Part shown: positions 49,270 to 64,000 of the stretch, one piece after another | Position numbering within the stretch: the stretch's first letter is position 1 | How the letters are laid out: every line of letters begins with the position of its first letter | Assembly (NCBI GenBank): GCA_017548065.1 | Contig: JAFYNQ010000027.1 | Coordinates: forward strand, 9,872-73,871 | Source of the DNA: Oscillospiraceae bacterium | GTDB taxonomy: Bacteria; Bacillota; Clostridia; Oscillospirales; Oscillospiraceae | Direction: 5' to 3' | DNA: 64,000 nt | Position numbers and translations under genes: made by a program | Notes under the pieces: model-generated | Told to the model about the DNA's origin: nothing | The model's database searches: none | Seen by the model: the letters and a program-made list of their open reading frames with translations, nothing else

Positions 49270-50151
49270 TTATGATCTGTGTCGCCCATAGTGCAGCGCC
49301 ATGGCAATGCCCAGGGGCAGAGCGGCAGCAAGCAGCAGCCATCGCTTTCCTTTGTAGCGTCCCAGGGGACTGGGTGACAAAAGGGAAAAGGCGATGTAAC
49401 GATAGGCAGCGTCAAAGCGTATTTTCAAAGGCAGCGGCATATCCAGACGGTCTGCATAGAACCATTTCATGGACACGCTGTTGCGAAGCATAAGCTGGCG
49501 GAAGCTGTGAGAGTAGCCGCCCTCCTGGTATTCGCAGCTGCAAAGCGCCTGGGGGAGCAGCTTGCAGCGATGGGCTTCGTCGATCCGGTCATAGAGCCAG
49601 GTCTCCGGGAAGAAACGCTGCGCCGGCGGCTCCGGGATTTTATGGGGCTGCAAAAGCTCTGTGCGATATACCAGTGTGCGATCACCGCTGCAGCGGTGGA
49701 GATTGATCAGTTCTATAAGGGTGGTTTCTGAAAGTTCCTCCGGGAAGGGGTCGCCGATTTGCTTGCCGGTTTCCATGTTTTCCTTGTAGGCTATAATGCC
49801 TGCCGGCGTATCCTGGATGGCCGCCAGCAGTGCAGACAGCGCACCGGGCATCAGCACATCGTCGGAGTCAATGCACAGAAAATAGGCATGCTTTGCCTCC
49901 CGGATGCCCACATTCATGGCGGTATGCTTGCCACCGTTTTCCTTGTAGATATAACGGATCTTCAGTTGTCCCTCGCAAGTGAAGGCATCTACCACCTGCT
50001 TTGTATCGTCGGTGGAGCCGTCATCCACGATCAGCCACTCCAGCTCCGGGCAGCTTTGGCTTTTTAAACTCTCATACAGCCGACCCAGCAGCTTTGCCCG
50101 GTTATAGGTAGGTGTGAACACGGTGATTCCGGGAAGAAATGTATTATGCAA
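49270..50151 (-). CDS. Glycosyltransferase family 2
   Basis: FTPTYNR, VDDGSTD, NGGKH, IDSDD, FPE; probable TTG start 50151 after GAGGAG. Confidence 0.88.
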   Translation of the reverse strand: MHNTFLPGITVFTPTYNRAKLLGRLYESLKSQSCPELEWLIVDDGSTDDTKQVVDAFTCEGQLKIRYIYKENGGKHTAMNVGIREAKHAYFLCIDSDDVLMPGALSALLAAIQDTPAGIIAYKENMETGKQIGDPFPEELSETTLIELINLHRCSGDRTLVYRTELLQPHKIPEPPAQRFFPETWLYDRIDEAHRCKLLPQALCSCEYQEGGYSHSFRQLMLRNSVSMKWFYADRLDMPLPLKIRFDAAYRYIAFSLLSPSPLGRYKGKRWLLLAAALPLGIAMALHYGRHRS

Positions 50152-51199
50152 AATAAATCTCCTCAATTCTTTCCGCCCAGGCGGTACAGCTATACTGCGC
50201 TTTGATCTGTGCAGAGGTGTTTTCCAGTGCCTGAGAGGGGAAGCGGTTGTCGGTCAGCAGCTGTGCCATGCGATCTGCCAGCGCTTCCGGATTTTCTGTC
50301 TCAAAAAAGCATGCGGTATCAAAGTTCTTTGCCCATTGGTTGCCGGGGATGTCGCTGACAATGGCAGGCAGCTTCTTGTAAAGCGCCTCCAGCAGCGCAT
50401 AAGAAAAGCATTCTCTGCGGCTGGTGGACAGAAAAACCTTGGCGCTGTCATAGAATGCAGATACATTTTCAGAAGGCGCAAGGCGCACTGTGCAGCATGC
50501 CATGTCCGGGTAAGTGGCATCCAGGTATTCCCAGGTTTGGGGATAGCCTACAATGGCCAGCTTGAAGCTTCGTCCTGCCTTGTGAAGCATGCGGCAGGCA
50601 TCCATAAGGATATCCAGCCCTTTTGTTTTGTAAAAACCGCCAAAGACCAGGAAGTCATATTGCTTTGTCAGCGCTTCCCGGGAGACCAACCGTGAGCAAT
50701 CAATGCAGTTGTCTACGATGTGGACATTCTTTTCGGGAAAGCCCAGGGAAACGGTGTAGTCTGCGTAGTAGCGGTTGGGGGAGATCATGATGGCCTTTTT
50801 GCCGCAAACACCGTACTGAAAGCGGTTGATCAGCTGATGGGGCAAATCAATATTTTCCTCAAAGGAATCATGCAAATGCCAAAAAAGCTTTTGCTTTCTC
50901 GTTTTGGCAAAGGCGCATAAACAATCATAAAGCTCAAAATGGGAATGGATCATGTCCGCCTGTGCCATGGCAGCCTTTACCTGCCGGAAGGTGGCATAGG
51001 AGAAACGGTTCAGACCTGCAAAAAATACCTGCCGTGTCCGGGAAAGCTGCTGGCACCAGGGGGTTTCCGCAACGGTCTCCGGAAACAGATACATGGTTTC
51101 CACGCCACGTGCGGACAAACGCTGATCCAGCGCCAGGAGAGAGGCTATGAAGTTGCCGCTGTACTGTGCGGTATAGGCGCATACTTGCAGGAGCTTCAT
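50144..51199 (-). CDS. Glycosyltransferase family 4
   Basis: HSHF, KGLD, SRRECFSYALLEA (Ex7E), SDIPG. Confidence 0.85.
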   Translation of the reverse strand: MKLLQVCAYTAQYSGNFIASLLALDQRLSARGVETMYLFPETVAETPWCQQLSRTRQVFFAGLNRFSYATFRQVKAAMAQADMIHSHFELYDCLCAFAKTRKQKLFWHLHDSFEENIDLPHQLINRFQYGVCGKKAIMISPNRYYADYTVSLGFPEKNVHIVDNCIDCSRLVSREALTKQYDFLVFGGFYKTKGLDILMDACRMLHKAGRSFKLAIVGYPQTWEYLDATYPDMACCTVRLAPSENVSAFYDSAKVFLSTSRRECFSYALLEALYKKLPAIVSDIPGNQWAKNFDTACFFETENPEALADRMAQLLTDNRFPSQALENTSAQIKAQYSCTAWAERIEEIYFA

Positions 51200-51205
51200 G
51201 GTGTG

Positions 51206-51883
51206 TTATCCTTTCTTTCTGCCGAAGAGACGGCGGAAGGGGCGCAGCAGGCGGCTGCGCAGTACGAGTCCGGGCTTGACCCAGCTTTTTGCATACCAGT
51301 GGATGCTGACGGTGTTTTCTGTGATATTCAACCGCCCGGTAAGGTCGTCATAGGGGTTCATGTAATCTATGGGCAGGATCCTTGCACCGGCAACGGTCTG
51401 CTCAGTGCCGTCGGGAATCAGTCCCAGCTGCACCAGGGCAGCGGTGTTGTAATGGGGGCAGGCGGAAATGTCCGGGGGGACAATGGTATGGTATTGCTGC
51501 AGCATGGCCTCCACAGTCTCGTGGTGGGCAGCAGCGCCGAAGCCTTGTCCTGTGTTCACACAGCTGCTGTTTTCAAAGCTGTAGAAAGCGCTTTCTTCCA
51601 AAAGCTTATCCGGGGCGCAAAGCAGCTCCACATCGGTGTCCAGATAGATGCCGCCGTGCTCTGCCACCACCGCCAGCCGGACATAGTCGCTGAGAAATGC
51701 CCATTTGCCGTTTTCGTAGCAGTAGCGGACATAGGCGTTTTTCGTGAGATCAAAATTGGTCTCATCCCAGCGTTGCAGCTGATAATCCGGACAGTATTTT
51801 TTCCAGCTGGCAATGCAGCGCTGCGCCTTTTCCGGCAATGGTTTGCCGCCGAACCAGCAGTAATGTATGGTTTTTGGGATCAT
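51206..51883 (-). CDS. Glycosyltransferase family 32 (DxD sugar-binding)
   Basis: MIPKTIHYCWFGG, SDYVR, GGIYLDTDVE, IHWY..SW. Confidence 0.88.
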   Translation of the reverse strand: MIPKTIHYCWFGGKPLPEKAQRCIASWKKYCPDYQLQRWDETNFDLTKNAYVRYCYENGKWAFLSDYVRLAVVAEHGGIYLDTDVELLCAPDKLLEESAFYSFENSSCVNTGQGFGAAAHHETVEAMLQQYHTIVPPDISACPHYNTAALVQLGLIPDGTEQTVAGARILPIDYMNPYDDLTGRLNITENTVSIHWYAKSWVKPGLVLRSRLLRPFRRLFGRKKG

Positions 51884-51888
51884 AGCCA

Positions 51889-52686
51889 TCAGCTCCCGAG
51901 ACGTTTTTTGTGCAGTAAGGTGTAAAGGGGAGTGGGAAGAAGTCCCACCAGGATGGGGCGCAGTGTATATACATAGCACCAGACCGGCAACTTCAGAATC
52001 CGCACGGCTTTTGCCTTGACCCGTGCTTCGTTGATGCGGTAGCGGAATTTTCTCCGGGCGGTGGCGTTGCGGTCATCCCGCATGCGGTAAAGGGCTTCGG
52101 ACAGATTGATGCCCCGATGGCCGGCGTGATACAGCTTGATCCACAGATCATAATCCTCTACCCGGAGGAATTTCTTGTCATCGGTGTAGCCGCCAACGGA
52201 GAGCATGGCCTGCCGCCGCACCATACAGGGGGCATGGCAGAAGGGTGTGCCGTGGAGAAAGTCCCGGGGCTGAGGCTCAGAAATTGCTGTTCCCGTGGCC
52301 CAGGTGCCGTTTTCATCAAAATATTCCATGGGAGTGCTGACAATGGCGATCTCCGGCCGGCTTTCCAGCACCTGCAGCTCCTTCTCAAAGCGCTCCGGAA
52401 TGCACAGATCGTCACCGTCCATACGGGCGATGTAAGTGCCGGTGGCATGCTCCAGGCAGCGGTTCAGTGTGTAGTTGAGACCCATGTTTTGCGGATTTTG
52501 CAGCAGCTTTATTTTGTCGGGGTGCTGCTCACAAAAACGGGTCGCCACAGCATAGGTGTCATCGGTGGAGCCGTCATCGCAGAGGATCAGCTCCCAGTCT
52601 GTGACAGTCTGCGCAAGAATGCTTTCAATGGCATCGCCCAAAGTTTCTGCGCAGTTATAAATGCCCATCAATACGGAAATCTTCAT
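51889..52686 (-). CDS. Glycosyltransferase family 2
   Basis: ISVLMGIYN, CDDGSTD, ARMDGDD, EDYDLW. Confidence 0.9.
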   Translation of the reverse strand: MKISVLMGIYNCAETLGDAIESILAQTVTDWELILCDDGSTDDTYAVATRFCEQHPDKIKLLQNPQNMGLNYTLNRCLEHATGTYIARMDGDDLCIPERFEKELQVLESRPEIAIVSTPMEYFDENGTWATGTAISEPQPRDFLHGTPFCHAPCMVRRQAMLSVGGYTDDKKFLRVEDYDLWIKLYHAGHRGINLSEALYRMRDDRNATARRKFRYRINEARVKAKAVRILKLPVWCYVYTLRPILVGLLPTPLYTLLHKKRLGS

Positions 52687-53825
52687 AACGATTCTCCCAA
52701 CAGCTGCTTTCTGTCTTCCAGAATGTGGCGGCAAAGGGTTACCTGGTCAAAGTTCTCCCGGGCAAAAGCAATGCCGGCATCGCCCAGGGATTGCCGCAGT
52801 GCGGTGTCCTCCAGAAGCCGCAGCATTGCAGCCTGCAGCGCCGTGGCATCCTTTGCAGGCACCGTAAGGCCGGTAACGTCTTTTTTCATGGCATCTGTAG
52901 GACCGGGGATGTCCGTTACGATCACCGGTACACCCATGGCCTCTGCCTCAATGACGCCGGAGCCGAAGCCCTCACGGTAGCTGGGCAGCAGATACACATC
53001 CATGGCAGCCAAAAACTGCTCCACCTTGTCGGTGTAGCCGCACCAAAGGATGCGAGGCTCACTTTTTGCCCACTGATACAGCTCAGGCTGCAGAGATTCT
53101 GTCTTTTCCTCTCTGCCCACCAGCATAAGCACGGCATTTTCCGGCAGCTGCCGGAAGGCAGTAAACAGCTCGTTAATGCCCTTGTCGCCGGTGATGCGAC
53201 CCACAAAGCCGAACACCGTTGTCTCCGGGGCAATGCCATAATGCGCCCGAAGCTGCTGCCGCCAAAGTTCTTTTTGGTTGTGGTCAAATTTTGTCAGATT
53301 TACACCGCTGGCGCTGCCGTTCCATACCACACAGCCCTTCTCGGGGCGGTACAGACCCTCCTGGGCAGCAAAACGGAGGTTGCCGTAGCTGTCCGGGGAG
53401 ACCCGGGTGGCAAGGCTGCAAACCAGCTTTTCCACTGCCTTAAAGACCTTTCTTTTAAAGCCGGAGAAGCCTACGTAGGCAATGCCCCACTGGCAATACA
53501 GCCGTACCGGCACCCCGGCCAGCGCTGCCGCCAGGGAGGCATACAGCGATGCATTGGGGGTGGAGAACTGCACCAGGTCAAATTTTTCCTTGCGGAAAAT
53601 GTTATATAGCTTCCAGACAGCCCCAAGACCGCTGAGGCTGATGCCACGCTTCATGGCGACGGGGATATAACGCACACCCTCCGGCAGCTGGGAGACCAGG
53701 GTGCCATCCTCATCGCAGATCACAGTGATCTGCCAATCCGTCATCTTCACCAACTGTTGCAGCACCGGAAAAACAAAAGCCTGCAGCGTGATGGGGACGG
53801 TGGTTACAATACAAAGCGATTTCAT
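52683..53825 (-). CDS. Glycosyltransferase family 4
   Basis: FVGRITGDKG, LPSYREGFGSGVIEA, TDIPG. Confidence 0.9.
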   Translation of the reverse strand: MKSLCIVTTVPITLQAFVFPVLQQLVKMTDWQITVICDEDGTLVSQLPEGVRYIPVAMKRGISLSGLGAVWKLYNIFRKEKFDLVQFSTPNASLYASLAAALAGVPVRLYCQWGIAYVGFSGFKRKVFKAVEKLVCSLATRVSPDSYGNLRFAAQEGLYRPEKGCVVWNGSASGVNLTKFDHNQKELWRQQLRAHYGIAPETTVFGFVGRITGDKGINELFTAFRQLPENAVLMLVGREEKTESLQPELYQWAKSEPRILWCGYTDKVEQFLAAMDVYLLPSYREGFGSGVIEAEAMGVPVIVTDIPGPTDAMKKDVTGLTVPAKDATALQAAMLRLLEDTALRQSLGDAGIAFARENFDQVTLCRHILEDRKQLLGESL

Positions 53826-54430
53826 TTGATTCTCCTTGCAGGAACGCCCACGTAAGTACCGGACTCCGTGATGGTTCTTACGACAACGGCGCCTGCGCCT
53901 ATGACGGTATTTTCACATACGGATAGATTGTTGCTGATAACAGCGCCGATACCGACCCAGGTCTTTTGGCCGATGCAAACAGTGCCGGCGACCTTTGCGC
54001 CCACAGAGACATGGGCATAGTCAGCGATTCGGCAGTCATGCTCAATGATGGCGCCGGTGTTAAGGATGCAGTGTTGTCCTGCTTCAGCGCCGGAATTGAG
54101 GATGCAACCGGCCATAACGGCGCTGCCTGCGCCCACAGTGGCATCTGCGGCGATCACAGCCTGGGGGTGGATGGCAGTATACCAACGGACACCTTTCAGA
54201 GTTTCCACAATTCGCTGACGGATATCCTGATTGCCGATGGCAACGATCATGGGGGTGTCCAAATAATTTGCATAGTCACTGACAGGGCCTAACACGGGAG
54301 CGCCGACCCATTGTGTAATGTCTGTGCGGTCATCCAAAAAACCCAAAACACGGTCACCGACACACCGCACAATATCTGCCACAACTCTTCCGTAGCCGCT
54401 TGCGCCGATAATAATGACATTTTGATTCAT
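53822..54430 (-). CDS. PglD/NeuD-family sugar acetyltransferase
   Basis: IIGASG, VAIGN, IHP, IEHDC, hexapeptide repeats, GVPAR. Confidence 0.88.
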   Translation of the reverse strand: MNQNVIIIGASGYGRVVADIVRCVGDRVLGFLDDRTDITQWVGAPVLGPVSDYANYLDTPMIVAIGNQDIRQRIVETLKGVRWYTAIHPQAVIAADATVGAGSAVMAGCILNSGAEAGQHCILNTGAIIEHDCRIADYAHVSVGAKVAGTVCIGQKTWVGIGAVISNNLSVCENTVIGAGAVVVRTITESGTYVGVPARRIK

Positions 54431-54435
54431 AATGG

Positions 54436-55050
54436 TTACTCCTGCTTGTTGCTACCACGGAAGGGTTCCATGGTAGCATGTCCCTCAGCGCTGATGCCAT
54501 CCCGCTTCAGCACGTTCTTTACCGTAAGCAACAGAATTTTAATGTCCCCTAAAAGGGTGATGTTTTTGGTATATTCCACATCCATGCGGAAACGGTCTTC
54601 CCAGGCCAGCAGGTTGCGACCGTTCACCTGGGCAAGACCGGTCAGTCCCGGGCGCACATCGTGGCGGTGGCGCTGCTGCGCATTGTAAAGGGGCAAATAC
54701 TCCACCAGCAGGGGGCGAGGGCCTACCAGGGACATCTGTCCCAAAAAGATATTGATCAGCTCCGGCAGCTCATCCAGGGAGGAGGCACGGAGGAATTTTC
54801 CGTAACCGTTCAGCCGCCGGGCATCGGGCAGCAGCTTGCCGCTGCTGTCTTTTTCCATGGTCATGGTGCGGAACTTAATAAGCCGGAAGATCTTCTCATC
54901 CTTGCCGGGGCGCAGCTGTGTGAAGAAGGGATTTCCCTTCATGGCAACAGCGCCCACCAGGATCAGGATCAGCAGCACCGGGGACAGAACCAGGAGCGCC
55001 ACTGCGGAAATGCACAGATCCAGCACCCGTTTCCAAAATTTAGCATACAT
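54436..55050 (-). CDS. Initiating phosphoglycosyltransferase (PglC/EpsL-like)
   Basis: KR..D, KFRTM, SLDELP, SLVGPRP, RPGLTGLAQ. Confidence 0.92.
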   Translation of the reverse strand: MYAKFWKRVLDLCISAVALLVLSPVLLILILVGAVAMKGNPFFTQLRPGKDEKIFRLIKFRTMTMEKDSSGKLLPDARRLNGYGKFLRASSLDELPELINIFLGQMSLVGPRPLLVEYLPLYNAQQRHRHDVRPGLTGLAQVNGRNLLAWEDRFRMDVEYTKNITLLGDIKILLLTVKNVLKRDGISAEGHATMEPFRGSNKQE

Positions 55051-55051
55051 A

Positions 55052-56170
55052 TCAGAACGCCGCCTTTACAGTGTCAATTACATAGGAAAGATCTTCCTCG
55101 GTCATCTTGATATCCGAGGGCAGACACAGACCCCGTGCAAAAATATCCTCATCCACCGGCTGTTCGGCAGCAGAGACAAAGTCACAGTGGGCAAACACCG
55201 GCTGCATATGCATGGGCTTCCAGATGGGACGGCTCTCAATGTTGGCTTCGTTCAGCTTTTGCATCAGCGTCAGGGGGTCAACGCCGCAGCCGGCATCCAA
55301 AAGAATGCAGGAGAGCCAGAAATTGGGAACAGAGTCTGCAGCGTAGGGGTTCATGGTCAGGGGTAGACCACGGAAAGCTTCCTCATAGCGGCGATAGATC
55401 CGCTCCTTGGCATCCCGATGCTCCTGCAGATGGAGCAGCTGTCCTCTGCCGATGCCGGCAACGATGTTGGACATGCGGTAGTTGTAGCCCAGCTCCTTAT
55501 GCTCATACCAGGGGGTGTTTTCCCGGGACTGGGTGGCCCAGAACAGCGCCTTATTCCGCATTTCGGGAGACTTTGCCAGCAGCATGCCGCCGCCGGAGGT
55601 GGTGATGATCTTGTTGCCGTTAAAGCTCAGCGCCGCAAGCTGCCCAAAGGTACCGCACTGACGTCCTTTGTAGGTGGAAGACAGCGCCTCTGCGGCATCC
55701 TCAATAAGGATCACGTTGTGACGGCGGCAGATCTCCAAAATCTCGTCTGTTTTGGCAGGTGTGCCGTACAGATGCACCAGCACCACGGCTTTTACATTGG
55801 GATAGCGGCGGAAGGCCTCCTCCAGCGCCTGGGGATCCATGTTCCAGGTGTCACGCTCACTGTCCACAAACACCGGGACACCGCCTTCATACACCACGGG
55901 ATTGACCGTGGCGGCAAAGGTCATGTCGGAGCAAAGGACAACGTCGCCGGGACGGATGCCTGCCAGCTTCACTGCCAGATGCAGCGCTGCCGTGCCGGAG
56001 CAGAGCGCCAGCGCATGCATATCCTGCTGCAGAAAACGGACAACACCGGCTTCCAGCTCGTCGCAGTTGAAGCCCAAAGGTGCCACCCAGTTTCTGTCAA
56101 TGGCCTCCTGGATATATTGTGCCTCCTCGCCGTGGAGGGTGGGGGTAGCCAGTAAAATTCTTTTTTCCAT
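55052..56170 (-). CDS. DegT/DnrJ PLP aminotransferase (PglE/EpsN-like)
   Basis: SGTAALHLA, EDAAEALS, SFNGNKIITTSGGG, GYNYRMSN, CLPS; alternative GTG start 56179. Confidence 0.9.
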   Translation of the reverse strand: MEKRILLATPTLHGEEAQYIQEAIDRNWVAPLGFNCDELEAGVVRFLQQDMHALALCSGTAALHLAVKLAGIRPGDVVLCSDMTFAATVNPVVYEGGVPVFVDSERDTWNMDPQALEEAFRRYPNVKAVVLVHLYGTPAKTDEILEICRRHNVILIEDAAEALSSTYKGRQCGTFGQLAALSFNGNKIITTSGGGMLLAKSPEMRNKALFWATQSRENTPWYEHKELGYNYRMSNIVAGIGRGQLLHLQEHRDAKERIYRRYEEAFRGLPLTMNPYAADSVPNFWLSCILLDAGCGVDPLTLMQKLNEANIESRPIWKPMHMQPVFAHCDFVSAAEQPVDEDIFARGLCLPSDIKMTEEDLSYVIDTVKAAF

Positions 56171-56175
56171 AAAAC

Positions 56176-57330
56176 TCACGCTTCTATTATGCCGTACAGC
56201 TTCAAAAGCGCCAGCCGCTGCTTGCCAAGCTGCAGAGTCGCTGCGCTGTCACGGTTATTTTTATAAGTAAGGATGCGGCAAAGCCATGCCCATGGCAGCA
56301 GCCAGGGGTGCTTTTTCAAATAGGGGAAACGTCCCACAAGGATGTTTTTTGGGGGGAACAGCGCAGAAAGGCTGTGACCGGACTTCCGCCCGGCAGCAGC
56401 GGACAAGGTGATGTTGCTGCTGCGCTTTCGCACGTCGGAGCTGCCGCCGTAGACACCGGCTGCCATAAGGTCAGCCAGCAGAGGTTCCGGGTCGGTGTCT
56501 CTGTAAAAGGGGGCAGGCAGACACCAGTATTTTTCGCCCAAGGCAAACAGCGCGGCGGCAAACCGATCTGCCCGAAGCTGGACAAGCGTGTTTTCAATCA
56601 CGTCCCACTGAATGCTGTCACGGTAGTGAGCGGCAAACAGAACAATGTCGCAGACCTGGCGCACACCGAAGCCGCTGTGGAGAAAATGCTTGAAGGCGTG
56701 CAGCAACAGATACAGCATATGCTCTGTGGGGTGCAGGGTGGGAAGCCCGTGGCACACTGTGGCATGGGCCGCTGCATCTTCAAAAAAGCGGTTCCAGCTG
56801 CCGTAGGTCTGGGAGTCCGGGTCAAATAAATGCCGATGCAGCTCAAGACACAGCCCGGAGGCGGAACAGCGATAGGTGCGTTCAAAGCGGTCTTCCGGGT
56901 CGGCGGTTTCGTAGCCCAGGTCTTCCAGGGCATGGCAGCAGCGGAGAAAGTCGTCGCCGCCTATAAACAGATCCTCGTCGGAGGAGGGTCTGTGATCCTC
57001 CAGGGGATAAAGCTTGCGGCAGACATAGCCTTTGACGATCAGGGGTCGCAGATTTTCTTTTTCCAGCTGCCGGTACAGCGCCTCCAGCTGCTGGGTGCGT
57101 ACTGCCTGGGTCATGACCTGCTGCCGCACCATGGGAGCGGCTTTGGTAAGGGCGTCTCCCTGGGGTAGCTTGTAGGCAGCCTCATAAAACAGGGGCAGTA
57201 CATGATGGGCAGCGGCTTTTGCTGCCAGCTGCTGCAAAAATGAAGGGGTATAGGAAGGGTCATCCTGCAAAGGCTTGCCCGTCAGGGCAGCGCCCAGAAT
57301 CTGCATAAATGCCCGGCTCTCGTCTAACAT
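56176..57330 (-). CDS. Nucleotidyltransferase family protein (NTP_transf_5-like)
   Basis: IVKG...LYP...RPSSDEDL, LELH, LHAFKH, GVRQVCD; ATG 57330 after GGGAGG. Confidence 0.82.
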   Translation of the reverse strand: MLDESRAFMQILGAALTGKPLQDDPSYTPSFLQQLAAKAAAHHVLPLFYEAAYKLPQGDALTKAAPMVRQQVMTQAVRTQQLEALYRQLEKENLRPLIVKGYVCRKLYPLEDHRPSSDEDLFIGGDDFLRCCHALEDLGYETADPEDRFERTYRCSASGLCLELHRHLFDPDSQTYGSWNRFFEDAAAHATVCHGLPTLHPTEHMLYLLLHAFKHFLHSGFGVRQVCDIVLFAAHYRDSIQWDVIENTLVQLRADRFAAALFALGEKYWCLPAPFYRDTDPEPLLADLMAAGVYGGSSDVRKRSSNITLSAAAGRKSGHSLSALFPPKNILVGRFPYLKKHPWLLPWAWLCRILTYKNNRDSAATLQLGKQRLALLKLYGIIEA

Positions 57331-57367
57331 AGGCTGCCTCCCTTCGTAACCCGGATCTGAATACATT

Positions 57368-57405: not shown

Positions 57406-57666
57406 TTACAGAATACCCAGCTTTTCCAGCGCCTCCAGGAAGGCGGAAATGTCTCTGCGTGCGGTGGCTTCGTCCACCTCGTATTCTGCCAGGACGGCAT
57501 CCACCAGCTGCTGAATATCTTCTGCCTGGGGCAGCAGATCCCAAAGAAAGCCGCCCAGCTCGTTAAGGACAAACAGTCCGTTGGCATCGTATACCGCAGA
57601 GCCGATGGGTACCAGCACCGTATCGCCGGATATGGTGCGCTTGATCAGTTCTTTTTTGAGCTGCAT
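57406..57666 (-). CDS. PqqD family RiPP recognition element (RRE)
   Basis: 86 aa; LVP, LNELGGFLWDLL, EYEVDEATARRDISAFLEAL PqqD pattern; ATG directly after rSAM stop. Confidence 0.9.
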   Translation of the reverse strand: MQLKKELIKRTISGDTVLVPIGSAVYDANGLFVLNELGGFLWDLLPQAEDIQQLVDAVLAEYEVDEATARRDISAFLEALEKLGIL

Positions 57667-58767
57667 TTACAGTTCCTCCTTGGCGAGCCGTACTGTCTCC
57701 TCCACCTGCTGACACAGATAGTGGGGGACTTGGTCAAAAGCGCCGGTTTCGGTGACACACACTGCAGCGCAAACGGGGCACACCGGCTTTTTGGGGCAGG
57801 TGGTGCAGGCGCTGGGCAGCCGAAGGGCGGCGGTGGCATTGCGAATGGTCTCCCAGGCGGCGGCAAAGCCTGCCTCCAGGGGATAGGCGATGGGACGGGG
57901 CATCATGCCGCAGGGCAGCATCTTGCCGTCCCAGGTGAGCCAGAAGCTGGTGCTGCCGGCACGGCAGCGGACACCGGGATCGGTCTCGGTGGAACACTCC
58001 GGCGCCAACTGGGCAAGGGCGGCGGTGTTTTCCATCCGTTTTTTAAACTCCTCCGGAGTAAACCGAAGACGGTCCCAGCGGAGACTTTCTTCTGCTGAAC
58101 GACAAGGGGTGAAGCGGTTGCCTGCCCCGTAGCTGTCCTCCTGCACACGTACCGGGGGATACATATAGCTGCTGGCTTTGATATTCACATCCAGCTCCAT
58201 GGCATCCCGGAAGATCTTCTCCAGATCCTGACAGTTGTAGGGGGTGATGGACAGATTCAGACTAACCTCAATACCTGCCTTTCGTAGGTTGGCGATGTTG
58301 CTGCGTACCCGGTCATACATGGGAAGACCGCACATTTTTTCGTAAGTCTCGTTGCAGCCGCCGTATAGGGAAATGTTAAAACGGGCAGGGGGATCTGCAA
58401 GGAATTTCTCTAAAATCTCCCCTTGGAGCATAGAACCGTTGGTGTTGACAGACACCATAAGTCCCAGCTTCTTCATGCCGCTGTAGATCTCAAAAAAGTC
58501 CTTCCGAACCAAAGGCTCGCCACCGGTGAGCAGCGCCACCAGCATACCGGCATCCCGGGCATCCCGGGCAAGCTGCAGCCACTGCTGGGCGGTCAGCTCT
58601 ATGCCTGCCTGCCGCTGCTGCTCCGGGGTCATGTGGATATAGCACATGGGGCAATTGAAATTGCACCGGGGCGTCAGCTCAAAAGTACCGGCAATGGGCA
58701 GACCCAATGCGCGACCCTTTTGATGCAGGTAGGTCATAATATGCGGTTCTGGGGCGGTTCTTTTCAT
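57667..58767 (-). CDS. Radical SAM/SPASM peptide maturase
   Basis: ELTPRCNFNCPMC (CxxxCxxC), LTGGEPL, NTNG; SPASM CRAG...DGKMLPC...CTTCPKKPVCPVCAAVC...C. Confidence 0.92.
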   Translation of the reverse strand: MKRTAPEPHIMTYLHQKGRALGLPIAGTFELTPRCNFNCPMCYIHMTPEQQRQAGIELTAQQWLQLARDARDAGMLVALLTGGEPLVRKDFFEIYSGMKKLGLMVSVNTNGSMLQGEILEKFLADPPARFNISLYGGCNETYEKMCGLPMYDRVRSNIANLRKAGIEVSLNLSITPYNCQDLEKIFRDAMELDVNIKASSYMYPPVRVQEDSYGAGNRFTPCRSAEESLRWDRLRFTPEEFKKRMENTAALAQLAPECSTETDPGVRCRAGSTSFWLTWDGKMLPCGMMPRPIAYPLEAGFAAAWETIRNATAALRLPSACTTCPKKPVCPVCAAVCVTETGAFDQVPHYLCQQVEETVRLAKEEL

Positions 58768-58773
58768 AGTAGC

Positions 58774-59631
58774 CTACTTTCTGATGCACTGCCAAAGGGC
58801 AGTCACAGCGGATTCGTCGGGGGTGCAGTCCAGCTGATACACCGGCACGGCGTTCAGCAGCTGCTCCAGGGTGTGGGAAACGGCCTCCAGGTCGTGCCGA
58901 TCCCAGGTGTTGACGCTGATGCCCTCCCATACACGGGCGAAGGCAGCGGCGCCGGTAAGCCGTGTGCAACGGGTTTGAGGCGCTTGGGTGAGATAGACGA
59001 TGGCAGACAAGGGCAGCGAGCAGCTTTCGCAAATACGGGAGCTGCCGGAGAAGGGGATGCCCTCTGCCAGGGCATTTCCTTCCGTCAGGCGCAGACAAGC
59101 ACGGTCACCGTTGCAGATGCGTGCACTGCGGTGTTTCTCCCAAAGGGCGGCCTGGGTGGATTTTCCCGTGCCGGAGGGAGCAGTGAATACAACGGTGCTG
59201 CCGCCGATGTCAATGAGAGAGCAGTGCAGCACAAAGCCCTCGGCCTGTGCCAGCAGATGCTCTGCGGCGCAGGCATTTAAAAGGGTCTTGGCAGTCATGC
59301 CCGTGGGAAAACGGGTCTGCAGCAGCTCCACAAAATGGTCTTTTCCCCGGTGGAAGCAGCACATGGCGGCATTTTCCCAAAGTCCTTCCTTGGCATGCAC
59401 ATACCGCTGCTGCCCCTGTTCTGCTTTGTAAACAGCGCCGTCGGGGAGCTTTGCCAGCAGCTTTCCCTCCGGGGGAGTCAGCTGCTGCGTATACTGAAAA
59501 AGAAAGCGGTGGGGGTCTTCTGCCGATGCTACCCGGAAGGGGGCAAGCACATCGTCGGGAAAGTCCTCCCCCTTCGGTGCAGTGACCGCCAGGCTGATGC
59601 CGGCAAAGCTGTAATACTTTTCCATACTCAT
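58774..59631 (-). CDS. HPr-kinase-related P-loop protein (putative peptide kinase)
   Basis: LHCS...FTAPSGTGKST (His + Walker A), NGDR, GIPFSGSS; ATGA overlap with upstream gene. Confidence 0.78.
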   Translation of the reverse strand: MSMEKYYSFAGISLAVTAPKGEDFPDDVLAPFRVASAEDPHRFLFQYTQQLTPPEGKLLAKLPDGAVYKAEQGQQRYVHAKEGLWENAAMCCFHRGKDHFVELLQTRFPTGMTAKTLLNACAAEHLLAQAEGFVLHCSLIDIGGSTVVFTAPSGTGKSTQAALWEKHRSARICNGDRACLRLTEGNALAEGIPFSGSSRICESCSLPLSAIVYLTQAPQTRCTRLTGAAAFARVWEGISVNTWDRHDLEAVSHTLEQLLNAVPVYQLDCTPDESAVTALWQCIRK

Positions 59632-60347
59632 TCCACCGTAATGAAGAGGATCTCGGTGTTGTTCTCGTGGATATGCTGACTTATCAGCTGAGAAATGGCA
59701 TTTCTCTTCATACCGCCGGTGATCCGCAGGCGGTAGGTGATGCCGCCGTAATAAATATCATTCTGCTTGTTTTTGTAGTAGACCACGATATCTCCGTCAA
59801 TATCCTTGCCGGAAATGTTGATCACATTCATGCCGCCGTCCAGCAGCTTTACAGACAAAAGGTCTTCCTGACGGCTCAGCTGCTTTGTGTAGAAAGCTGT
59901 GTTTTCCATCAGTGCATACTGGTAAGCTTCCGTGCTGTCATAGGGCAGACGGTTTGTCTCCAGCAGGATCACTGTCTCGCCGGGCAGCAACGCAGAAAGG
60001 GTAAAGCTTGCCTGCCCATCCTTTGTGGAAAGGGAGATGTTGGCATATTCCACCCCGGTGTCGCCCCGGTTGGTCACCCGGATCATCAGCACGCCGCTGA
60101 CCACCTGGTCGCTGCCGTCCTCCAGGAAAGGGCCGGTGTAGCTGCCCACCTCGGTGAGGAAAAGACCGTAGCCCAAATTCACAGACAGAGACTGGCTGTC
60201 AGTGACCCTGGCAGGGGCAGTCTGCTCGGTGGGTTCTGTGGTGTCGGGCGCCGGTGTTTTTTCGTTTTTCGGAAGCAGAAGCAGGACTATGACCAGTGCG
60301 ATCACAGCCAAAACAGCGGCTGCAATGTAGAAAATTTTCCGTTTCAT
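59628..60347 (-). CDS. Single-pass membrane-anchored protein of unknown function
   Basis: MKRK + hydrophobic helix, Pro/Thr/Glu linker, beta-rich soluble region; GAGG RBS. Confidence 0.7.
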   Translation of the reverse strand: MKRKIFYIAAAVLAVIALVIVLLLLPKNEKTPAPDTTEPTEQTAPARVTDSQSLSVNLGYGLFLTEVGSYTGPFLEDGSDQVVSGVLMIRVTNRGDTGVEYANISLSTKDGQASFTLSALLPGETVILLETNRLPYDSTEAYQYALMENTAFYTKQLSRQEDLLSVKLLDGGMNVINISGKDIDGDIVVYYKNKQNDIYYGGITYRLRITGGMKRNAISQLISQHIHENNTEILFITVE

Positions 60348-60402: not shown

Positions 60403-60663
60403 TCAGGAATTGAACAAATTATTATACTCTGTGGGCACGTGGTAGCAGAAGCCGTCCCAGGTGTCCGGTGTACCGCCGAAAGTATCGGGGGTAAAGAAGC
60501 AAGCGCTGACGGAGCTGTCAAAGATGTTGACGCCGCCGGAGGAGACCACGGCGCAGGTACCCCGTGTGGGGTTGTCCACAATGGCCTCGCAGCTGCCTGC
60601 GATGTTAGTGCTCGTGGCGAAGCTCTCAAAGAGAATGCGCGGAGCGTTATAGGGTTTTTTCAT
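60403..60663 (-). CDS. Putative RiPP precursor peptide (86 aa)
   Basis: AAGGAGG RBS; leader MKKPYNAPRI (YxxPxI); Cys25/37/55/73; C-terminal Ser; upstream of kinase, rSAM and RRE. Confidence 0.8.
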   Translation of the reverse strand: MKKPYNAPRILFESFATSTNIAGSCEAIVDNPTRGTCAVVSSGGVNIFDSSVSACFFTPDTFGGTPDTWDGFCYHVPTEYNNLFNS

Positions 60664-60677
60664 ACTCCGAGCCTCCT

Positions 60678-63600
60678 TTAAGCTTCGTTTGTATTTACCA
60701 GTAGTGTTGCCACCTGGGAGATGATCTGACTGTTCTTGGAGCCGATGATCACGCAGCGGTAACGGTAGCCGTTACGGGCGGCGGTGACGGTGACAGTCAG
60801 TGTGTCGGTATTGTAGCCTTCCATGGTGGTGTTGTGCCAGTTTTCGCCGTCACGGGAGTACTGCCACTGATACTTGATGCCTTCTGTCACGTTGGCAGCA
60901 GCGGTAAAGTATGCATTTCCGCCAACCACAGCAGTAGCATCCTGGGGCTGCTCCTCCAGGGTTAGGATGCGCAGTGTAGCAGCCTGGGTATACTCGGTGA
61001 CACCGGCAGCATTGGTGATGCGGCAGCGGTACAGGTAACCGTTACGGGCATCTGTTGCCGCAATAAGAACCGTGGGCTTTGTGCAGCCTTCCATAGCAGT
61101 ATCGATCCATTTTCCGCTACCGGGACGGCAGTACTGCCACTGATACTTCAGGCTTTCGCCCTCTGCAGCTGCGGTAAACTGCGCCTTGTCACCTGCGGCA
61201 ACCACCTGGTCCTTGGGCTGGGTTGTAATCTTCAGCTCTGTTTCCACAGCCAGCAGCGCCCAATCGGAGGTCAGCTTTGTGCCGTCTGCCAAAGTGACGA
61301 TGCAGCGGTACTTGTAGCCGTCACGTGCGCCGCCGGCGGTAACGGTCAGGGTGTCCGTCGTGCAACCGGTCAGCTCGGTGTTGTACCACTTGGTCAGCTT
61401 GCTGTACTGCCACTGATAGGTTGCGTTGGGATCCTGGGTCTCCACATGGAAGGAAACCGCAGTACCGGGGTAAGTAGTGACAGATTGGGGATGCTTTGTG
61501 ATGCAGTAGGGTTCAGGCTGTACGGTCACCAGAGGACTACCCACGGCAGTGTTTTCCTGGGGAACGCCCTTGCTCAAAGCACGAACCGTCAGGGCAGCGG
61601 CGCTTGCGCTCATGCGGAAGAGAGCGCGGCTGCTGGATTCCTCTGTGTAGGTAATCTTAATGTTGGTGACGGAGAGAACGCCGCTGCCTTCTGTGCCGGT
61701 GTTGGTGATGACGATAATGTCATCCTTCCAGCCGGTGATGTTGTAGTACATATCGGAGGCAGTGTTGAATTCTCTTGTCTTGGTGTTGTAGTAGTCGCCG
61801 GCTTCCACGCCGGTACCCTCAATGTCCTGGGCAGCGATGTTGGCCAAAGTAGCGAAAGCCTTCTTGCCGTCAGCGCTGCTGACAGCCATGTGAACAGAGG
61901 CAACATTGCTGTTCACCGTCAGACGGAATGCAACAGATTGACCGGGCGCAAGATACACTTCGTTGTTGGGGCCGTAGCTCTGATACTCGGAAATCTCTGC
62001 ATCGCCGCCCGGCTTACCATCAATGAACACAGCGCCTTCCAGCTCTGTAGCAGCGCCGTTGAAGGAATTTGCTCCCAGAATCAGGTTACGCAGTTCGTAG
62101 TATACGGGATAAGCTTCCTTATCCACAAGGTAGGCGTTCTGTGCGCTTTCGTCGATCAGGTTGCCGGTAATGCCGTCGGCGGCATCGTCTGTGCCGTACT
62201 GTGTGCCGGCAGGATCGTAAATGCGGATGGCATCCAGATACAGGTCATAGCCGTCATCGGTCGTCTGGTCAAACACGGGGGTGTAAGTGGCGATGATGGT
62301 CACGGTGTACTTGCCGTAAGGCAGACCCTTTGTCTTCATCACCGGCACCTGATACATGGCATTTGCCTGCTCCGGTGTGGGAACCCATACGTTCTCATGA
62401 ACGATGATGGTATCATTGATTTTCAGACCCTCGCCGTTTACATCGGGAAGCGTGGTAAGGGTAGCGCTTGTGGTTTCCAGGATCTCGGACAGTACCCACT
62501 GACGCTGACCCTGTTCGTTCAGTCGCAGGGTGTAAATCACATCCCGTGCTTCATAGATGTAGCCATAGTAGGTGTTGACAACACGGGCTTCCACAGTGTT
62601 GCCCTGGGCATCCTGCACCTGCACAGCCAGAAGACCGGTGGTGTTGCTGGTCATGCTGATAACATCAAAGCCGGTACCGATAAACTGGAAGGTAGCGGTG
62701 GCGTAGGAATCTGCGCCTACGTGAACCTTCTTTGCGTTGTCCAGGGAGAAGCTTGCAAAGTAGGCATAGTTGCCGTCATAGCCATAAATGTTGTTGGCAT
62801 CAGTCAGGCTGTAAGCGCCGGGACGGTCTTCGTCCTGAACATAGCCGCTGGCGTCATAGTTTTCTGTGGTGTCCTCCCAGGCAGTGCCGCTGCCGCCCAG
62901 CTGCAGGAAGGTTTCCTCATAGTAGACGGTGGTGGCAGGAATGACGGTGAGGTGGTCATAGTAATAACCGCCGTTTACGTCGCTTTCGTAGTCAACTGCA
63001 TAGGTGAACTTGTCCACACCGTTCATAGCCATGGTGGTGGGGGTGTAGCGCAGCTTGCCCTTGGCACGATCCAGCAGAATGTTGCCGAACTGACCGGGAT
63101 AGCTGTCGCCGAAACCCTCTGCCAGTGTGCTGCTGCCGGTAACAGTGTCCAGAGCCTCGGTGTAAGGACCGACGGCTGCCAGTGTGCCGGGTTCACCGAA
63201 CATGTCATTGGCCATAACATCAATGTCCACGGGCAGACCGTAGTCAATGACCACAGAGTCCGGGTTTGCCTGCACCTTCCACACAACGGCAAACCAAACA
63301 ACCGTGTGGGTGTAGTCATTGCCGAGGGAGTTGGTGTAAAGCTCGTTGGAGAAGGCGGCGGAGTCGCTCAAGTTAAACTGAGTAACGTAGGTACTCTGCA
63401 CAGGCTGGCCGCAGGTGATGGTCCAGTTACCGGTGGCATCGGAATAAATCTTGACCTGGTAGACGGCATCCTCGTCATACAGTGTGTAATACTTGGGAAG
63501 CACGTCATCCTGGATCGCCTTGACTTCCAGGGCGGGGATCTCTTCCGATGCGTTCAGATAGACTTCGCTGTAGAGAACCGGCTGGGTAACGGCGATCTTG

Positions 63601-64000
63601 TTGGCAAAAGAGCCGGTGGCGCCGGTGGTCTGGTTAACGATGATCTGTCCCTGCTCATTTACCAGGTAGAATGCATAGGAAACGTTGGCAGACTTCCAGG
63701 CAACGGTGGGAGAGGGGGGGCTCTGGACACAGTTGTCCTTGTCCAGATAGTTGGTGTAGTAGAGGCTTGCGTACTCGTTGGTGGCATAAGAGCCTGCTTC
63801 ACGTGTGCCCTCCATAGAACCGGTCAGGTACACATAGTAGCTCATAGCCAGCTCGGTACTTTGTACCGTACCCATCTTCCAGTAGAAGGTTTCAGAGGGG
63901 AGCAGTGTGCTGTCACCGCCGGTGGGGATATCCACGCCATCCAGGGAAACGGCAGTGGGATTGGTGTTGTACAGGAAAGTCAGTGCGTTGATAACGCCGC
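60678..64000 (-). CDS. Giant surface/secreted protein with C-terminal Ig-like repeats (5' end outside window)
   Basis: Frame open to window edge (GVINALTFLYNTNP...); cadherin/Big-like ANPDSVVIDYGLPVDIDVMAND; three C-terminal Ig repeats. Confidence 0.8.
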   Translation of the reverse strand, partial: GVINALTFLYNTNPTAVSLDGVDIPTGGDSTLLPSETFYWKMGTVQSTELAMSYYVYLTGSMEGTREAGSYATNEYASLYYTNYLDKDNCVQSPPSPTVAWKSANVSYAFYLVNEQGQIIVNQTTGATGSFANKIAVTQPVLYSEVYLNASEEIPALEVKAIQDDVLPKYYTLYDEDAVYQVKIYSDATGNWTITCGQPVQSTYVTQFNLSDSAAFSNELYTNSLGNDYTHTVVWFAVVWKVQANPDSVVIDYGLPVDIDVMANDMFGEPGTLAAVGPYTEALDTVTGSSTLAEGFGDSYPGQFGNILLDRAKGKLRYTPTTMAMNGVDKFTYAVDYESDVNGGYYYDHLTVIPATTVYYEETFLQLGGSGTAWEDTTENYDASGYVQDEDRPGAYSLTDANNIYGYDGNYAYFASFSLDNAKKVHVGADSYATATFQFIGTGFDVISMTSNTTGLLAVQVQDAQGNTVEARVVNTYYGYIYEARDVIYTLRLNEQGQRQWVLSEILETTSATLTTLPDVNGEGLKINDTIIVHENVWVPTPEQANAMYQVPVMKTKGLPYGKYTVTIIATYTPVFDQTTDDGYDLYLDAIRIYDPAGTQYGTDDAADGITGNLIDESAQNAYLVDKEAYPVYYELRNLILGANSFNGAATELEGAVFIDGKPGGDAEISEYQSYGPNNEVYLAPGQSVAFRLTVNSNVASVHMAVSSADGKKAFATLANIAAQDIEGTGVEAGDYYNTKTREFNTASDMYYNITGWKDDIIVITNTGTEGSGVLSVTNIKITYTEESSSRALFRMSASAAALTVRALSKGVPQENTAVGSPLVTVQPEPYCITKHPQSVTTYPGTAVSFHVETQDPNATYQWQYSKLTKWYNTELTGCTTDTLTVTAGGARDGYKYRCIVTLADGTKLTSDWALLAVETELKITTQPKDQVVAAGDKAQFTAAAEGESLKYQWQYCRPGSGKWIDTAMEGCTKPTVLIAATDARNGYLYRCRITNAAGVTEYTQAATLRILTLEEQPQDATAVVGGNAYFTAAANVTEGIKYQWQYSRDGENWHNTTMEGYNTDTLTVTVTAARNGYRYRCVIIGSKNSQIISQVATLLVNTNEA
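60690..61505 (-). repeat. Three tandem ~90-aa Ig-like repeats
   Basis: Repeated P....V......F.......YQWQY....W..T...G.....L......R(N/D)GY.YRC; boundaries approximate. Confidence 0.8.

What the first reader, a model, noticed from the sequence alone, without database searches (positions are those of the whole stretch)
60403..60663. Precursor anatomy: lasso-style YxxP leader, four widely spaced Cys, internal TPDT repeat, CYHVP...FNS tail
Seen: MKKPYNAPRILFESF leader; Cys at 25, 37, 55, 73; tandem TPDTFGG/TPDTWDG; aromatic-rich end CYHVPTEYNNLFNS; strong RBS. Established: YxxPxL/I is the RRE-binding motif of lasso leaders. Inference: leader ends near ...NIA/GS; Cys could form thioethers to Asp/Asn/Thr residues, or W69/F72/Y74/H75 could be cross-linked. 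The Cys spacing does not match the compact SCIFF pattern.
Basis: partly seen in the sequence, partly recalled or inferred. Interest (0 to 1): 0.75.

Follow-up and report, generated by a model that had tools for sequence, protein, structure and literature searches.

The report
Modified peptide partnered to giant protein
This 86-residue gene is real and belongs to a large unnamed family of gut-bacterial peptides that are likely cross-linked, phosphorylated on their last serine and exported; it is inherited together with one domain of a giant secreted protein, which suggests the peptide is a small partner of that protein rather than a free antibiotic.

Summary
The ORF is real (minus strand). YxxPxI, four Cys, CYH.P and terminal FxS are conserved in 225 family sequences. 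The TPDT repeat (2 of 225) and Trp69 are not. A profile finds 1,335 clusters at 50% identity; no Pfam or NCBIfam family matches.

The gene sits in a conserved run: giant secreted protein, peptide, hairpin, membrane protein, HPrK-like kinase, rSAM/SPASM, PqqD, PF14907 transferase, polysaccharide genes. An S26-type peptidase and an ABC exporter lie 13 kb upstream. This is the LPP (Popov 2026) enzyme set plus a radical SAM enzyme; it is neither lasso nor SCIFF.

In 301 congeneric genomes, a beta-sandwich module of the giant occurs in 67 of 72 peptide-bearing genomes and 1 of 229 others. Giant-plus-peptide pairs also occur without enzymes, in genomes with stand-alone enzyme cassettes.

Best reading: a QhpC-like small partner, thioether-bridged (first candidate Asp/Asn70-Cys73, 200 of 224), phospho(glyco)sylated on Ser86, exported and bound by the giant. 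Chemistry and binding are inferred, not shown. This scan noted similar cassettes beside giant proteins in other genomes.

The parts
60403..60663 (-). Precursor peptide gene, 86 aa
60598..60663 (-). Predicted leader, residues 1-22, ending Ile21-Ala22 (cleavage site inferred)
   Evidence: I21 93-99% and A22 94-97% conserved; Ile(-2) precedent in BsfA
60634..60651 (-). YxxPxI RRE-binding motif (Y5-P8-I10)
   Evidence: 222 of 225; LPP and lasso motif
60451..60492 (-). TPDTFGG/TPDTWDG repeat: present but lineage-specific, not a family feature
   Evidence: 2 of 225
60433..60456 (-). [D/N]-G-x-C73-Y74-H75-x-P77 motif; candidate rSAM site
   Evidence: D/N at Cys-3 in 200 of 224 against 16% background; CY in 224 of 225
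60406..60414 (-). Terminal Phe-x-Ser; predicted kinase site (Ser86)
   Evidence: 212 of 225 end in FxS
60672..60677 (-). Ribosome-binding site AGGAGG, directly after the giant gene's stop codon
60367..60398 (-). Terminator-like hairpin directly after the peptide gene
   Evidence: z -4.5; z below -2 in 59 of 66 loci against 3 of 66 in-gene controls
60678..64000 (-). 3' part of the giant secreted protein gene (2,467 aa in all, continues beyond the window; signal-peptide-like N-terminus, weak VWA, three C-terminal Ig-like repeats)
61542..63314 (-). Peptide-associated module of the giant (residues 1590-2180): Ig-like domain, CBM-like jelly roll, third beta domain
59628..60347 (-). Membrane-anchored protein of no known family, 239 aa, conserved with the system
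58774..59631 (-). HPrK/ScmC-like kinase (Walker A SGTGKST, Asp176)
57667..58767 (-). Radical SAM/SPASM enzyme, below every curated cut-off shown
57406..57666 (-). Stand-alone PqqD/RRE
56176..57366 (-). PF14907 NTP_transf_5 (PsmN/LppN-like; D130-x-D132)
49270..56179 (-). Surface-polysaccharide genes (DegT aminotransferase, priming transferase, PglD-like, glycosyltransferases) on the same strand

Best explanation
The gene encodes a peptide precursor that is likely bound by PqqD, cross-linked by the radical SAM enzyme, phosphorylated (and possibly sugared) on its last serine, trimmed and exported, and that would then work as a small partner of the giant secreted protein encoded directly before it. 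Steps: (1) SHOWN: the gene, the conserved motifs, the conserved enzyme cassette, and co-inheritance with one module of the giant. (2) INFERRED, about 0.9: PqqD binds Y5-x-x-P8-x-I10, as LppB and lasso B1 proteins do. (3) INFERRED, about 0.7: the HPrK-like kinase phosphorylates Ser86, as PadeK and PsmK do. About 0.45: the PF14907 enzyme then adds sugar to the phosphate, as PsmN does. (4) INFERRED, about 0.5: the rSAM makes Cys thioethers, first candidate Cys73-S to C-beta of Asp/Asn70 (NxxcB/ranthionine type). Acceptors for C25, C37 and C55 are not evident. (5) INFERRED, about 0.7: the S26-type peptidase cuts after Ala22 and the MsbA-like ABC transporter exports the roughly 64-aa core. (6) INFERRED, about 0.65: outside the cell it binds the giant's Ig/jelly-roll module as a subunit or ligand, like QhpC in quinohemoprotein amine dehydrogenase, perhaps helped by the 239-aa membrane protein. 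About 0.3: its phospho-sugar end tethers the complex to surface polysaccharide.
For: Family conservation. Cassette order giant-peptide-membrane protein-kinase-rSAM-PqqD, whole or cut by a contig end, in 10 of 14 GTDB loci. In 301 congeneric genomes the peptide is in 72. The module is in 67 of those and 1 of the other 229, and that one (G506) has a peptide cut by the contig end. The rSAM is in 68 of 72 against 9 of 229; PF14907 in 64 of 72 against 106 of 229; S26 in 64 of 72 against 76 of 229. Of 115 module hits, 70 have a peptide within 1.2 kb downstream and 22 more within 13 kb in other arrangements, including divergent ones. The giants differ in cargo (VWA, GDSL esterase, PA14, DUF7601) and in tails but share the module, and 4 of 46 end at it. 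Giant-plus-peptide pairs without enzymes occur in genomes with precursor-less enzyme cassettes. A hairpin closes the giant-plus-peptide unit. Precedents: LPP (PMC13381572), pseudomycoidin (PMC6993621), NxxcB (PMC13361665), QhpC (PMC7876137).
Against: No product, activity or binding was measured. About 22 of 46 giants end in an amphipathic helix and 5 in a transmembrane-plus-basic tail (by eye), so many have anchors of their own. The close-clade rSAM has an eighth conserved SPASM Cys (C258, 16 of 16) that could close the open iron which thioether-forming CrpC uses (PMC13692751). D/N-x-x-C is lost in some distant peptides. In LPP and Bsf the phosphate goes on core Ser3, not the terminal Ser, and LppN was inactive heterologously. 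Peptide distance tracks module distance (rho 0.69) hardly better than rSAM distance (0.64), so linkage alone can explain the co-variation. Four of 20 module loci examined (L092, L095, L098, L100) showed no peptide nearby despite ample downstream sequence, and three more (L093, L094, L096) none in short or unresolved flanks. Kin genomes are not independent, and the module profile was built from proteins upstream of peptides.
Confidence: 0.55

Rival explanations
1. The peptide is a freely diffusing modified peptide (signal, metal chelator or antimicrobial). The giant is its receptor, or only a co-regulated neighbour.
For: The core is hypervariable between fixed Cys, copies are dispersed, and the distribution is patchy (72 of 301 in the genus; 0 of 398 other genomes of the class sample), as for conflict or signalling systems.
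Against: Pairing with the module is nearly one to one and survives rearrangement and loss of the enzymes. No immunity-like or regulator gene is conserved in the cassette. The hairpin follows the peptide gene, not the giant.
Confidence: 0.2
2. Same pathway, different rSAM chemistry: a carbon-carbon link at Tyr74 or a triceptide-like Phe84-Ser86 cyclophane, with the four Cys left as two disulfides or metal ligands.
For: Tyr74 (224 of 225) and Phe84-x-Ser86 (212 of 225) are as conserved as the Cys. Aromatic-x-x motifs are cyclophane sites (PMC12912966 passages). The close clade has eight SPASM Cys. Cys spacing is wide and variable.
Against: D/N at Cys73-3 in 89% fits an NxxC-type thioether. No cyclophane-synthase family is among the 25 best NCBIfam rows shown (of 71). 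The eighth Cys is absent in several distant enzymes whose peptides still carry Cys.
Confidence: 0.3
3. It is an ordinary LPP-like phosphopeptide, phosphorylated near the start of the core, that decorates the capsule. The rSAM and the giant are a separate add-on.
For: All LPP core genes are present on this contig and flank polysaccharide genes. S26 and PF14907 genes are common without the Cys peptide.
Against: The Ser3 position is Cys25 here and residue 24 is Ser in 5% or fewer. The rSAM and the module track this peptide, whereas S26 and PF14907 are merely nested above it.
Confidence: 0.1
4. It is an unmodified small folded or metal-binding protein and not an enzyme substrate.
For: Four invariant Cys plus His.
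Against: It has an RRE leader and a linked PqqD, rSAM and kinase. AlphaFold2 with 150 sequences gives no fold (pLDDT 61, pTM 0.24). It has no signal peptide.
Confidence: 0.05

Closest known systems
Linear polyphosphorylated peptides (LPP; LppA/K/B/S/D/N, Popov et al. 2026, PMC13381572)
   Same: YxxPx[V/I] leader, stand-alone RRE, HPrK-like kinase, archaeal-type signal peptidase (Ser-to-His spacing 39 in both: S29/H68 and S35/H74), PF14907-type transferase, MsbA-like exporter, capsule-locus setting, no lasso cyclase.
   Different: Has an rSAM/SPASM enzyme, four invariant Cys and a conserved C-terminus (LPP tails are variable). Cys stands where LPP has the phosphorylated Ser3. The leader end is F-x-L-S-T-x-I-A, not IxFET. 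It is paired with a giant protein and a membrane protein. 'radical', 'rSAM' and 'SPASM' occur 0 times in that paper's main text.
Phosphorylated and phosphoglycosylated lasso peptides (paeninodin PadeK, pseudomycoidin PsmK/PsmN, Bradymonas Bsf)
   Same: Leader motif, terminal Ser plus HPrK-like kinase, transferase DxD (D130/D132 against PsmN D134/D136), Ile at -2 as in BsfA.
   Different: No B2 peptidase found in the genome, no macrolactam cyclase in the locus, no conserved ring Asp/Glu at core positions 7-9, and a core of about 64 aa.
QhpC/QhpD (gamma subunit of quinohemoprotein amine dehydrogenase, PMC7876137)
   Same: Works-like analogy: a roughly 9 kDa four-Cys peptide with a leader, cross-linked by an rSAM, cut by a serine protease, exported by an ABC transporter, then joined to separately secreted large subunits.
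   Different: No sequence relationship was shown. There is no conserved Trp for a quinone cofactor and no heme subunit or flavoprotein. It has a kinase and transferase, and the RRE is separate.
Ranthipeptides, SCIFF and NxxC RaS-RiPPs
   Same: Cys-containing precursor with rSAM/SPASM; an [N/D]-x-x-C motif at the last Cys.
   Different: Four widely spaced Cys (gaps 10-13, 14-26, 10-32), not six in 45. The rSAM is below every curated cut-off shown. It has a lasso-type leader, kinase and transferase.
SynChlorMet cassette (TIGR04248-04251)
   Same: ScmC-like kinase, PqqD and rSAM/SPASM in one cassette.
   Different: All scores are far below cut-off (24.5/125, 21.3/100, 67/400); one rSAM per cassette.

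Membership tests
LPP | Discrete RRE plus YxxP leader | tested here: met
   PqqD PF05402 E 1.5e-18; motif in 222 of 225
LPP | SpI-like (S26) peptidase, HPrK-like kinase, NTP transferase and MsbA-like exporter linked | tested here: met
   the peptidase and exporter are 13 kb upstream, beyond a hairpin and a predicted promoter
LPP | Leader consensus YxxPxVLxHQxIxFETxxS with core Ser3 as phospho-acceptor | tested here: not met
   Consensus is YxKPxIxFExFxLSTxIAxxC; position 3 is Cys
LPP | Linear polyphosphorylated product | not testable with these tools
   Needs mass spectrometry; the linked rSAM suggests it is not linear
Lasso peptide | B2 transglutaminase-like peptidase | tested here: not met
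   PF13471 not found in G000, 89% complete
Lasso peptide | Macrolactam cyclase linked to the precursor | tested here: not met
   PF00733 hits only on other contigs (C63, C120), none in the cassette
SCIFF/thermocellin ranthipeptide | Six Cys in about 45 residues and an ScfB-type maturase | tested here: not met
   Four Cys in 213 of 225; no NCBIfam match for the peptide. The definition is recalled.
Sacti/ranthipeptide (broad) | rSAM-made Cys thioether | not testable with these tools
   Only motif evidence
Sacti/ranthipeptide (broad) | Seven-Cys SPASM with an open AuxI iron | tested here: inconclusive
   Seven Cys invariant in 40 of 40; an eighth in 16 of 16 close and at least 13 of 24 distant enzymes
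Triceptide | Aromatic-x-x motif cross-linked by a 3-CyFE | tested here: inconclusive
   FxS and YHx are conserved; no such family among the 25 of 71 rows shown
SynChlorMet | ScmC, D, E and F above cut-off, two rSAMs | tested here: not met
QhpC-type subunit | Stable complex with the large secreted protein | not tested

The most novel reading that the evidence does not exclude
A RiPP-based surface-display system. Each giant secreted protein is co-transcribed with its own peptide tag, which a shared rSAM/kinase/transferase/S26 machine cross-links, phospho-glycosylates and exports. The tag docks in a dedicated beta-sandwich module and ties the giant to the cell's polysaccharide through a serine-phosphate-sugar bond, doing the job of a sortase or of cohesin-dockerin with a ribosomal peptide.
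Probability: 0.3. Interest if true: 0.9.

Novelty: new variant of a known kind. Interest (0 to 1): 0.63.

Why it matters
The role of LPPs and of phosphorylated lasso peptides beside capsule loci is stated to be unknown (PMC13381572, Discussion). This family offers a concrete candidate partner (a defined module of about 590 aa), a candidate rSAM site and a terminal phospho-acceptor, so the question can be tested directly. It would also add an uncharacterised rSAM clade, and a second case after QhpC of RiPP-style maturation making a subunit of a secreted protein, in a common genus of animal-gut Clostridia.

Tried and rejected
TPDT repeat as a functional motif: rejected (2 of 225). W69 and F72 cross-links: rejected as family features. 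Lasso and SCIFF membership: rejected. A fixed acidic acceptor for every Cys: found only at C73 (-3) and weakly at C25 (+1, D/E 82%) and C55 (+6, 52%).

AlphaFold2 on the peptide gave no confident fold, so it was not searched. For the module, there was no PDB sequence match. Foldseek gave only low-TM jelly-roll matches. VIA gave CBM-like folds at Z 11-13 for model residues 128-369, and Ig 'split domain' matches to FrhA and MpAFP for residues 12-129, which I read as the Ig part and not their peptide-binding domain. The third domain was barely tested. Atlas searches returned unnamed clusters only.

Expression: two bovine-gut RNA runs of one study hold 5% of the words. They give a few 151-nt contigs on the giant and one on the peptide gene with 9 differences. 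This is too thin and may be DNA, so it is not evidence. Peptide-module co-variation does not separate from linkage. P0227 (457 aa; module fragment joined to a peptide) is a single record, possibly a chimera, and was not used.

Ten literature searches found no description of this family. Most subscription papers and bioRxiv supplements are not covered.

Full report
OBSERVATION. The ORF is on the minus strand, 60663 to 60403, and gives the 86 residues quoted. Its RBS (AGGAGG, 8-nt spacer) directly follows the stop codon of a 2,467-aa gene. Substitutions against two homologous genes fall mostly on third codon positions. No Pfam or NCBIfam model matches the peptide. A word-indexed search gave 77 homologues. 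A profile of them gave 1,335 representatives at 50% identity with E up to 0.001, of which 150 were listed.

WHAT IS CONSERVED. I analysed 225 sequences of at most 115 aa and left out the 457-aa P0227. YxxPx[IVLMF] is in 222, four core Cys in 213, Cys-Tyr in 224 and terminal FxS in 212; D or N lies three residues before the last Cys in 200 of 224, against 16% background. F12, E13, F15, I21, A22, F48 and P77 are 90% or more conserved. Cys spacing varies: 10-13, 14-26 and 10-32. The TPDT repeat is in 2 of 225, and W69 and F72 vary, so they are not family features. AlphaFold2 gave no fold.

LEADER END. Three registers are possible. Aligning Tyr with LppA Y(-16) puts the cut after N20; aligning I21 with LppA F(-3) puts it after G23; Ile at -2 as in BsfA puts it after A22. 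I favour A22. The I/V-A pair is fixed while the spacer to the first Cys varies, and a distant subgroup has Thr-Ala there, the canonical lasso Thr(-2). This is inference.

CONTEXT. Downstream on the same strand lie a hairpin (z -4.5), a 239-aa membrane-anchored protein of no known family (690 homologues), an HPrK/ScmC-like kinase, an rSAM/SPASM enzyme, a stand-alone PqqD, a PF14907 transferase and polysaccharide genes. Beyond the window, upstream of the giant, lie two Wzz/tyrosine-kinase genes, CpsB, an S24/S26 peptidase and an MsbA-like exporter. A promoter-like site and a 16-pair hairpin separate these from the giant (consensus matches only). The kinase keeps Lys157, Thr159 and Asp176 in 50 of 50 homologues. 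The rSAM keeps seven SPASM Cys in 40 of 40, plus an eighth (C258) in 16 of 16 close and at least 13 of 24 distant ones. No lasso B2 was found in the genome, and asparagine-synthetase hits are on other contigs (genome 89% complete).

DISTRIBUTION. The cassette order recurs in 10 of 14 GTDB loci whose titles name Oscillospiraceae/Faecousia, Lachnospiraceae, Erysipelotrichaceae and other Clostridia; the other four are peptide genes without adjacent enzymes. No match was found in 398 other genomes drawn from the class, with two not scored. In 301 genomes of the genus, the peptide is in 72 and up to 7 matches occur per genome. The rSAM is in 68 of those 72 and 9 of the other 229; PF14907 in 64 and 106; the S26 peptidase in 64 and 76. 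So the peptide/rSAM unit is nested on a more common LPP-like chassis. These are incomplete assemblies and kin, so no test statistic is given.

COUPLING TO THE GIANT PROTEIN. In 51 of 72 distinct precursor hits the gene directly upstream is a homologue of the giant, mostly 10-20 nt away; many of the rest are cut by contig ends. The shared part is residues about 1600-2170. A profile of its core found 115 matches in 68 of the 301 genomes (two split duplicates dropped): 67 peptide-bearing genomes and one other. Seventy matches have a peptide within 1.2 kb downstream and 22 more have one within 13 kb, in other orders or divergent. I examined 20 of the remaining 23. In 10 the giant runs off the contig, 3 have a divergent or truncated peptide directly downstream, and 7 show none. 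Of those 7, three have short or unresolved flanks and four have the membrane protein nearby. The giants carry different cargo and tails, and 4 of 46 end at the module. Several genomes hold giant-plus-peptide pairs with no adjacent enzymes, together with kinase-rSAM-PqqD cassettes with no precursor found. A hairpin follows the peptide gene in 59 of 66 loci against 3 of 66 controls. The module is predicted (pLDDT 75, pTM 0.73) as an Ig-like domain, a CBM-like jelly roll (best Z 13.3, rmsd 2.3, 113 aligned) and a third beta domain; it has no invariant Cys. Caveats: the profile was trained on proteins upstream of peptides, and co-variation does not separate from linkage.

MECHANISM. Most likely PqqD presents the precursor, the kinase phosphorylates Ser86, and the transferase may add sugar to the phosphate. 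PsmK and PsmN do this on pseudomycoidin, and the transferase here has D130/D132 against D134/D136 there. The rSAM likely makes thioethers, first candidate Asp/Asn70-Cys73, as NxxcB links Cys to an upstream Asn C-beta. The S26 peptidase (S35/H74, the same spacing as LppS S29/H68) would cut the leader and the ABC transporter would export the core. The core would then join the Sec-exported giant, as QhpC joins its large subunits. Against this: many giants have their own tail anchors; the eighth SPASM Cys may close the site used in thioether formation; Tyr74 and FxS allow carbon-carbon links instead; LPP and Bsf are phosphorylated on core Ser3; and no binding test was obtained.

LITERATURE SEEN. 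PMC13381572: parts 1, 2, 3 and 5 of 12, passages, and a term search of six supplements. Radical_SAM is one column of 834 in its domain matrix, and two clostridial S26-plus-RRE rows shown have no precursor determined. PMC6993621, PMC10368454, PMC13361665, PMC7876137 and PMC12912966: passages only. PMC13692751: abstract, outline and passages. PMC10288494: passages, and its one held supplement has none of three family motifs. PMC12710340: term search, no hits. Ten searches found no description of this family. The SCIFF and SynChlorMet definitions are recalled. Earlier notes of this scan gave the LPP lead and describe similar rSAM-LPP cassettes beside giant proteins in other genomes. They are unchecked AI notes and not independent support; no look-alike of this peptide was indexed.

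VERDICT. A real, large, unnamed precursor family in an rSAM-bearing variant of the LPP and phospho-lasso logic. It fails LPP, lasso, SCIFF and SynChlorMet membership. Its distinctive feature is the near one-to-one pairing with a defined module of giant secreted proteins. New variant of a known kind; interest 0.63.

Noticed in passing
L078:1703-4540 (G000:C39): A second PqqD, S26 peptidase and ABC exporter set, with a small acidic single-pass membrane protein between them; no YxxP precursor found by my patterns.
   Followed up: partly
L079:1782-2462 and L080:1275-2120: Two further ScmC/HPrK-like kinases in this genome, one next to wzz genes; a second PF14907 gene lies on contig C52 among polysaccharide genes.
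   Followed up: partly
L007:12837-12977; L109:326-460: Short (44-46 aa) Cys-free acidic peptides with a leader like MKxxYENAEMxxVxFxxEDVIxTS, each after a large gene; possibly a second, LPP-like precursor class in this genus.
   Followed up: no
L110:1286-1690; L115:7922-8362: Longer (130-146 aa) WxxP-leader, Cys-containing, Ser-ending precursors with a distant rSAM that lacks the eighth SPASM Cys.
   Followed up: no
L003:1189-1353 and L063:5464-5714: Broken or split copies of the peptide gene behind giant-protein genes.
   Followed up: no
window 60678-61500; G000 contigs C1, C7, C29, C34, C113: The giant's three C-terminal Ig-like repeats recur at the ends of several other large secreted proteins of this genome, which lack the module and the peptide; a possible genome-specific sorting or anchoring tail.
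   Followed up: partly
L001-L056, giant C-termini: About half of the giants end in an amphipathic helix rich in Phe and Trp, a possible membrane-anchoring signal.
   Followed up: no
P0227: A 457-aa record joining part of the giant module in frame to a complete peptide; a real fusion or a chimera.
   Followed up: no
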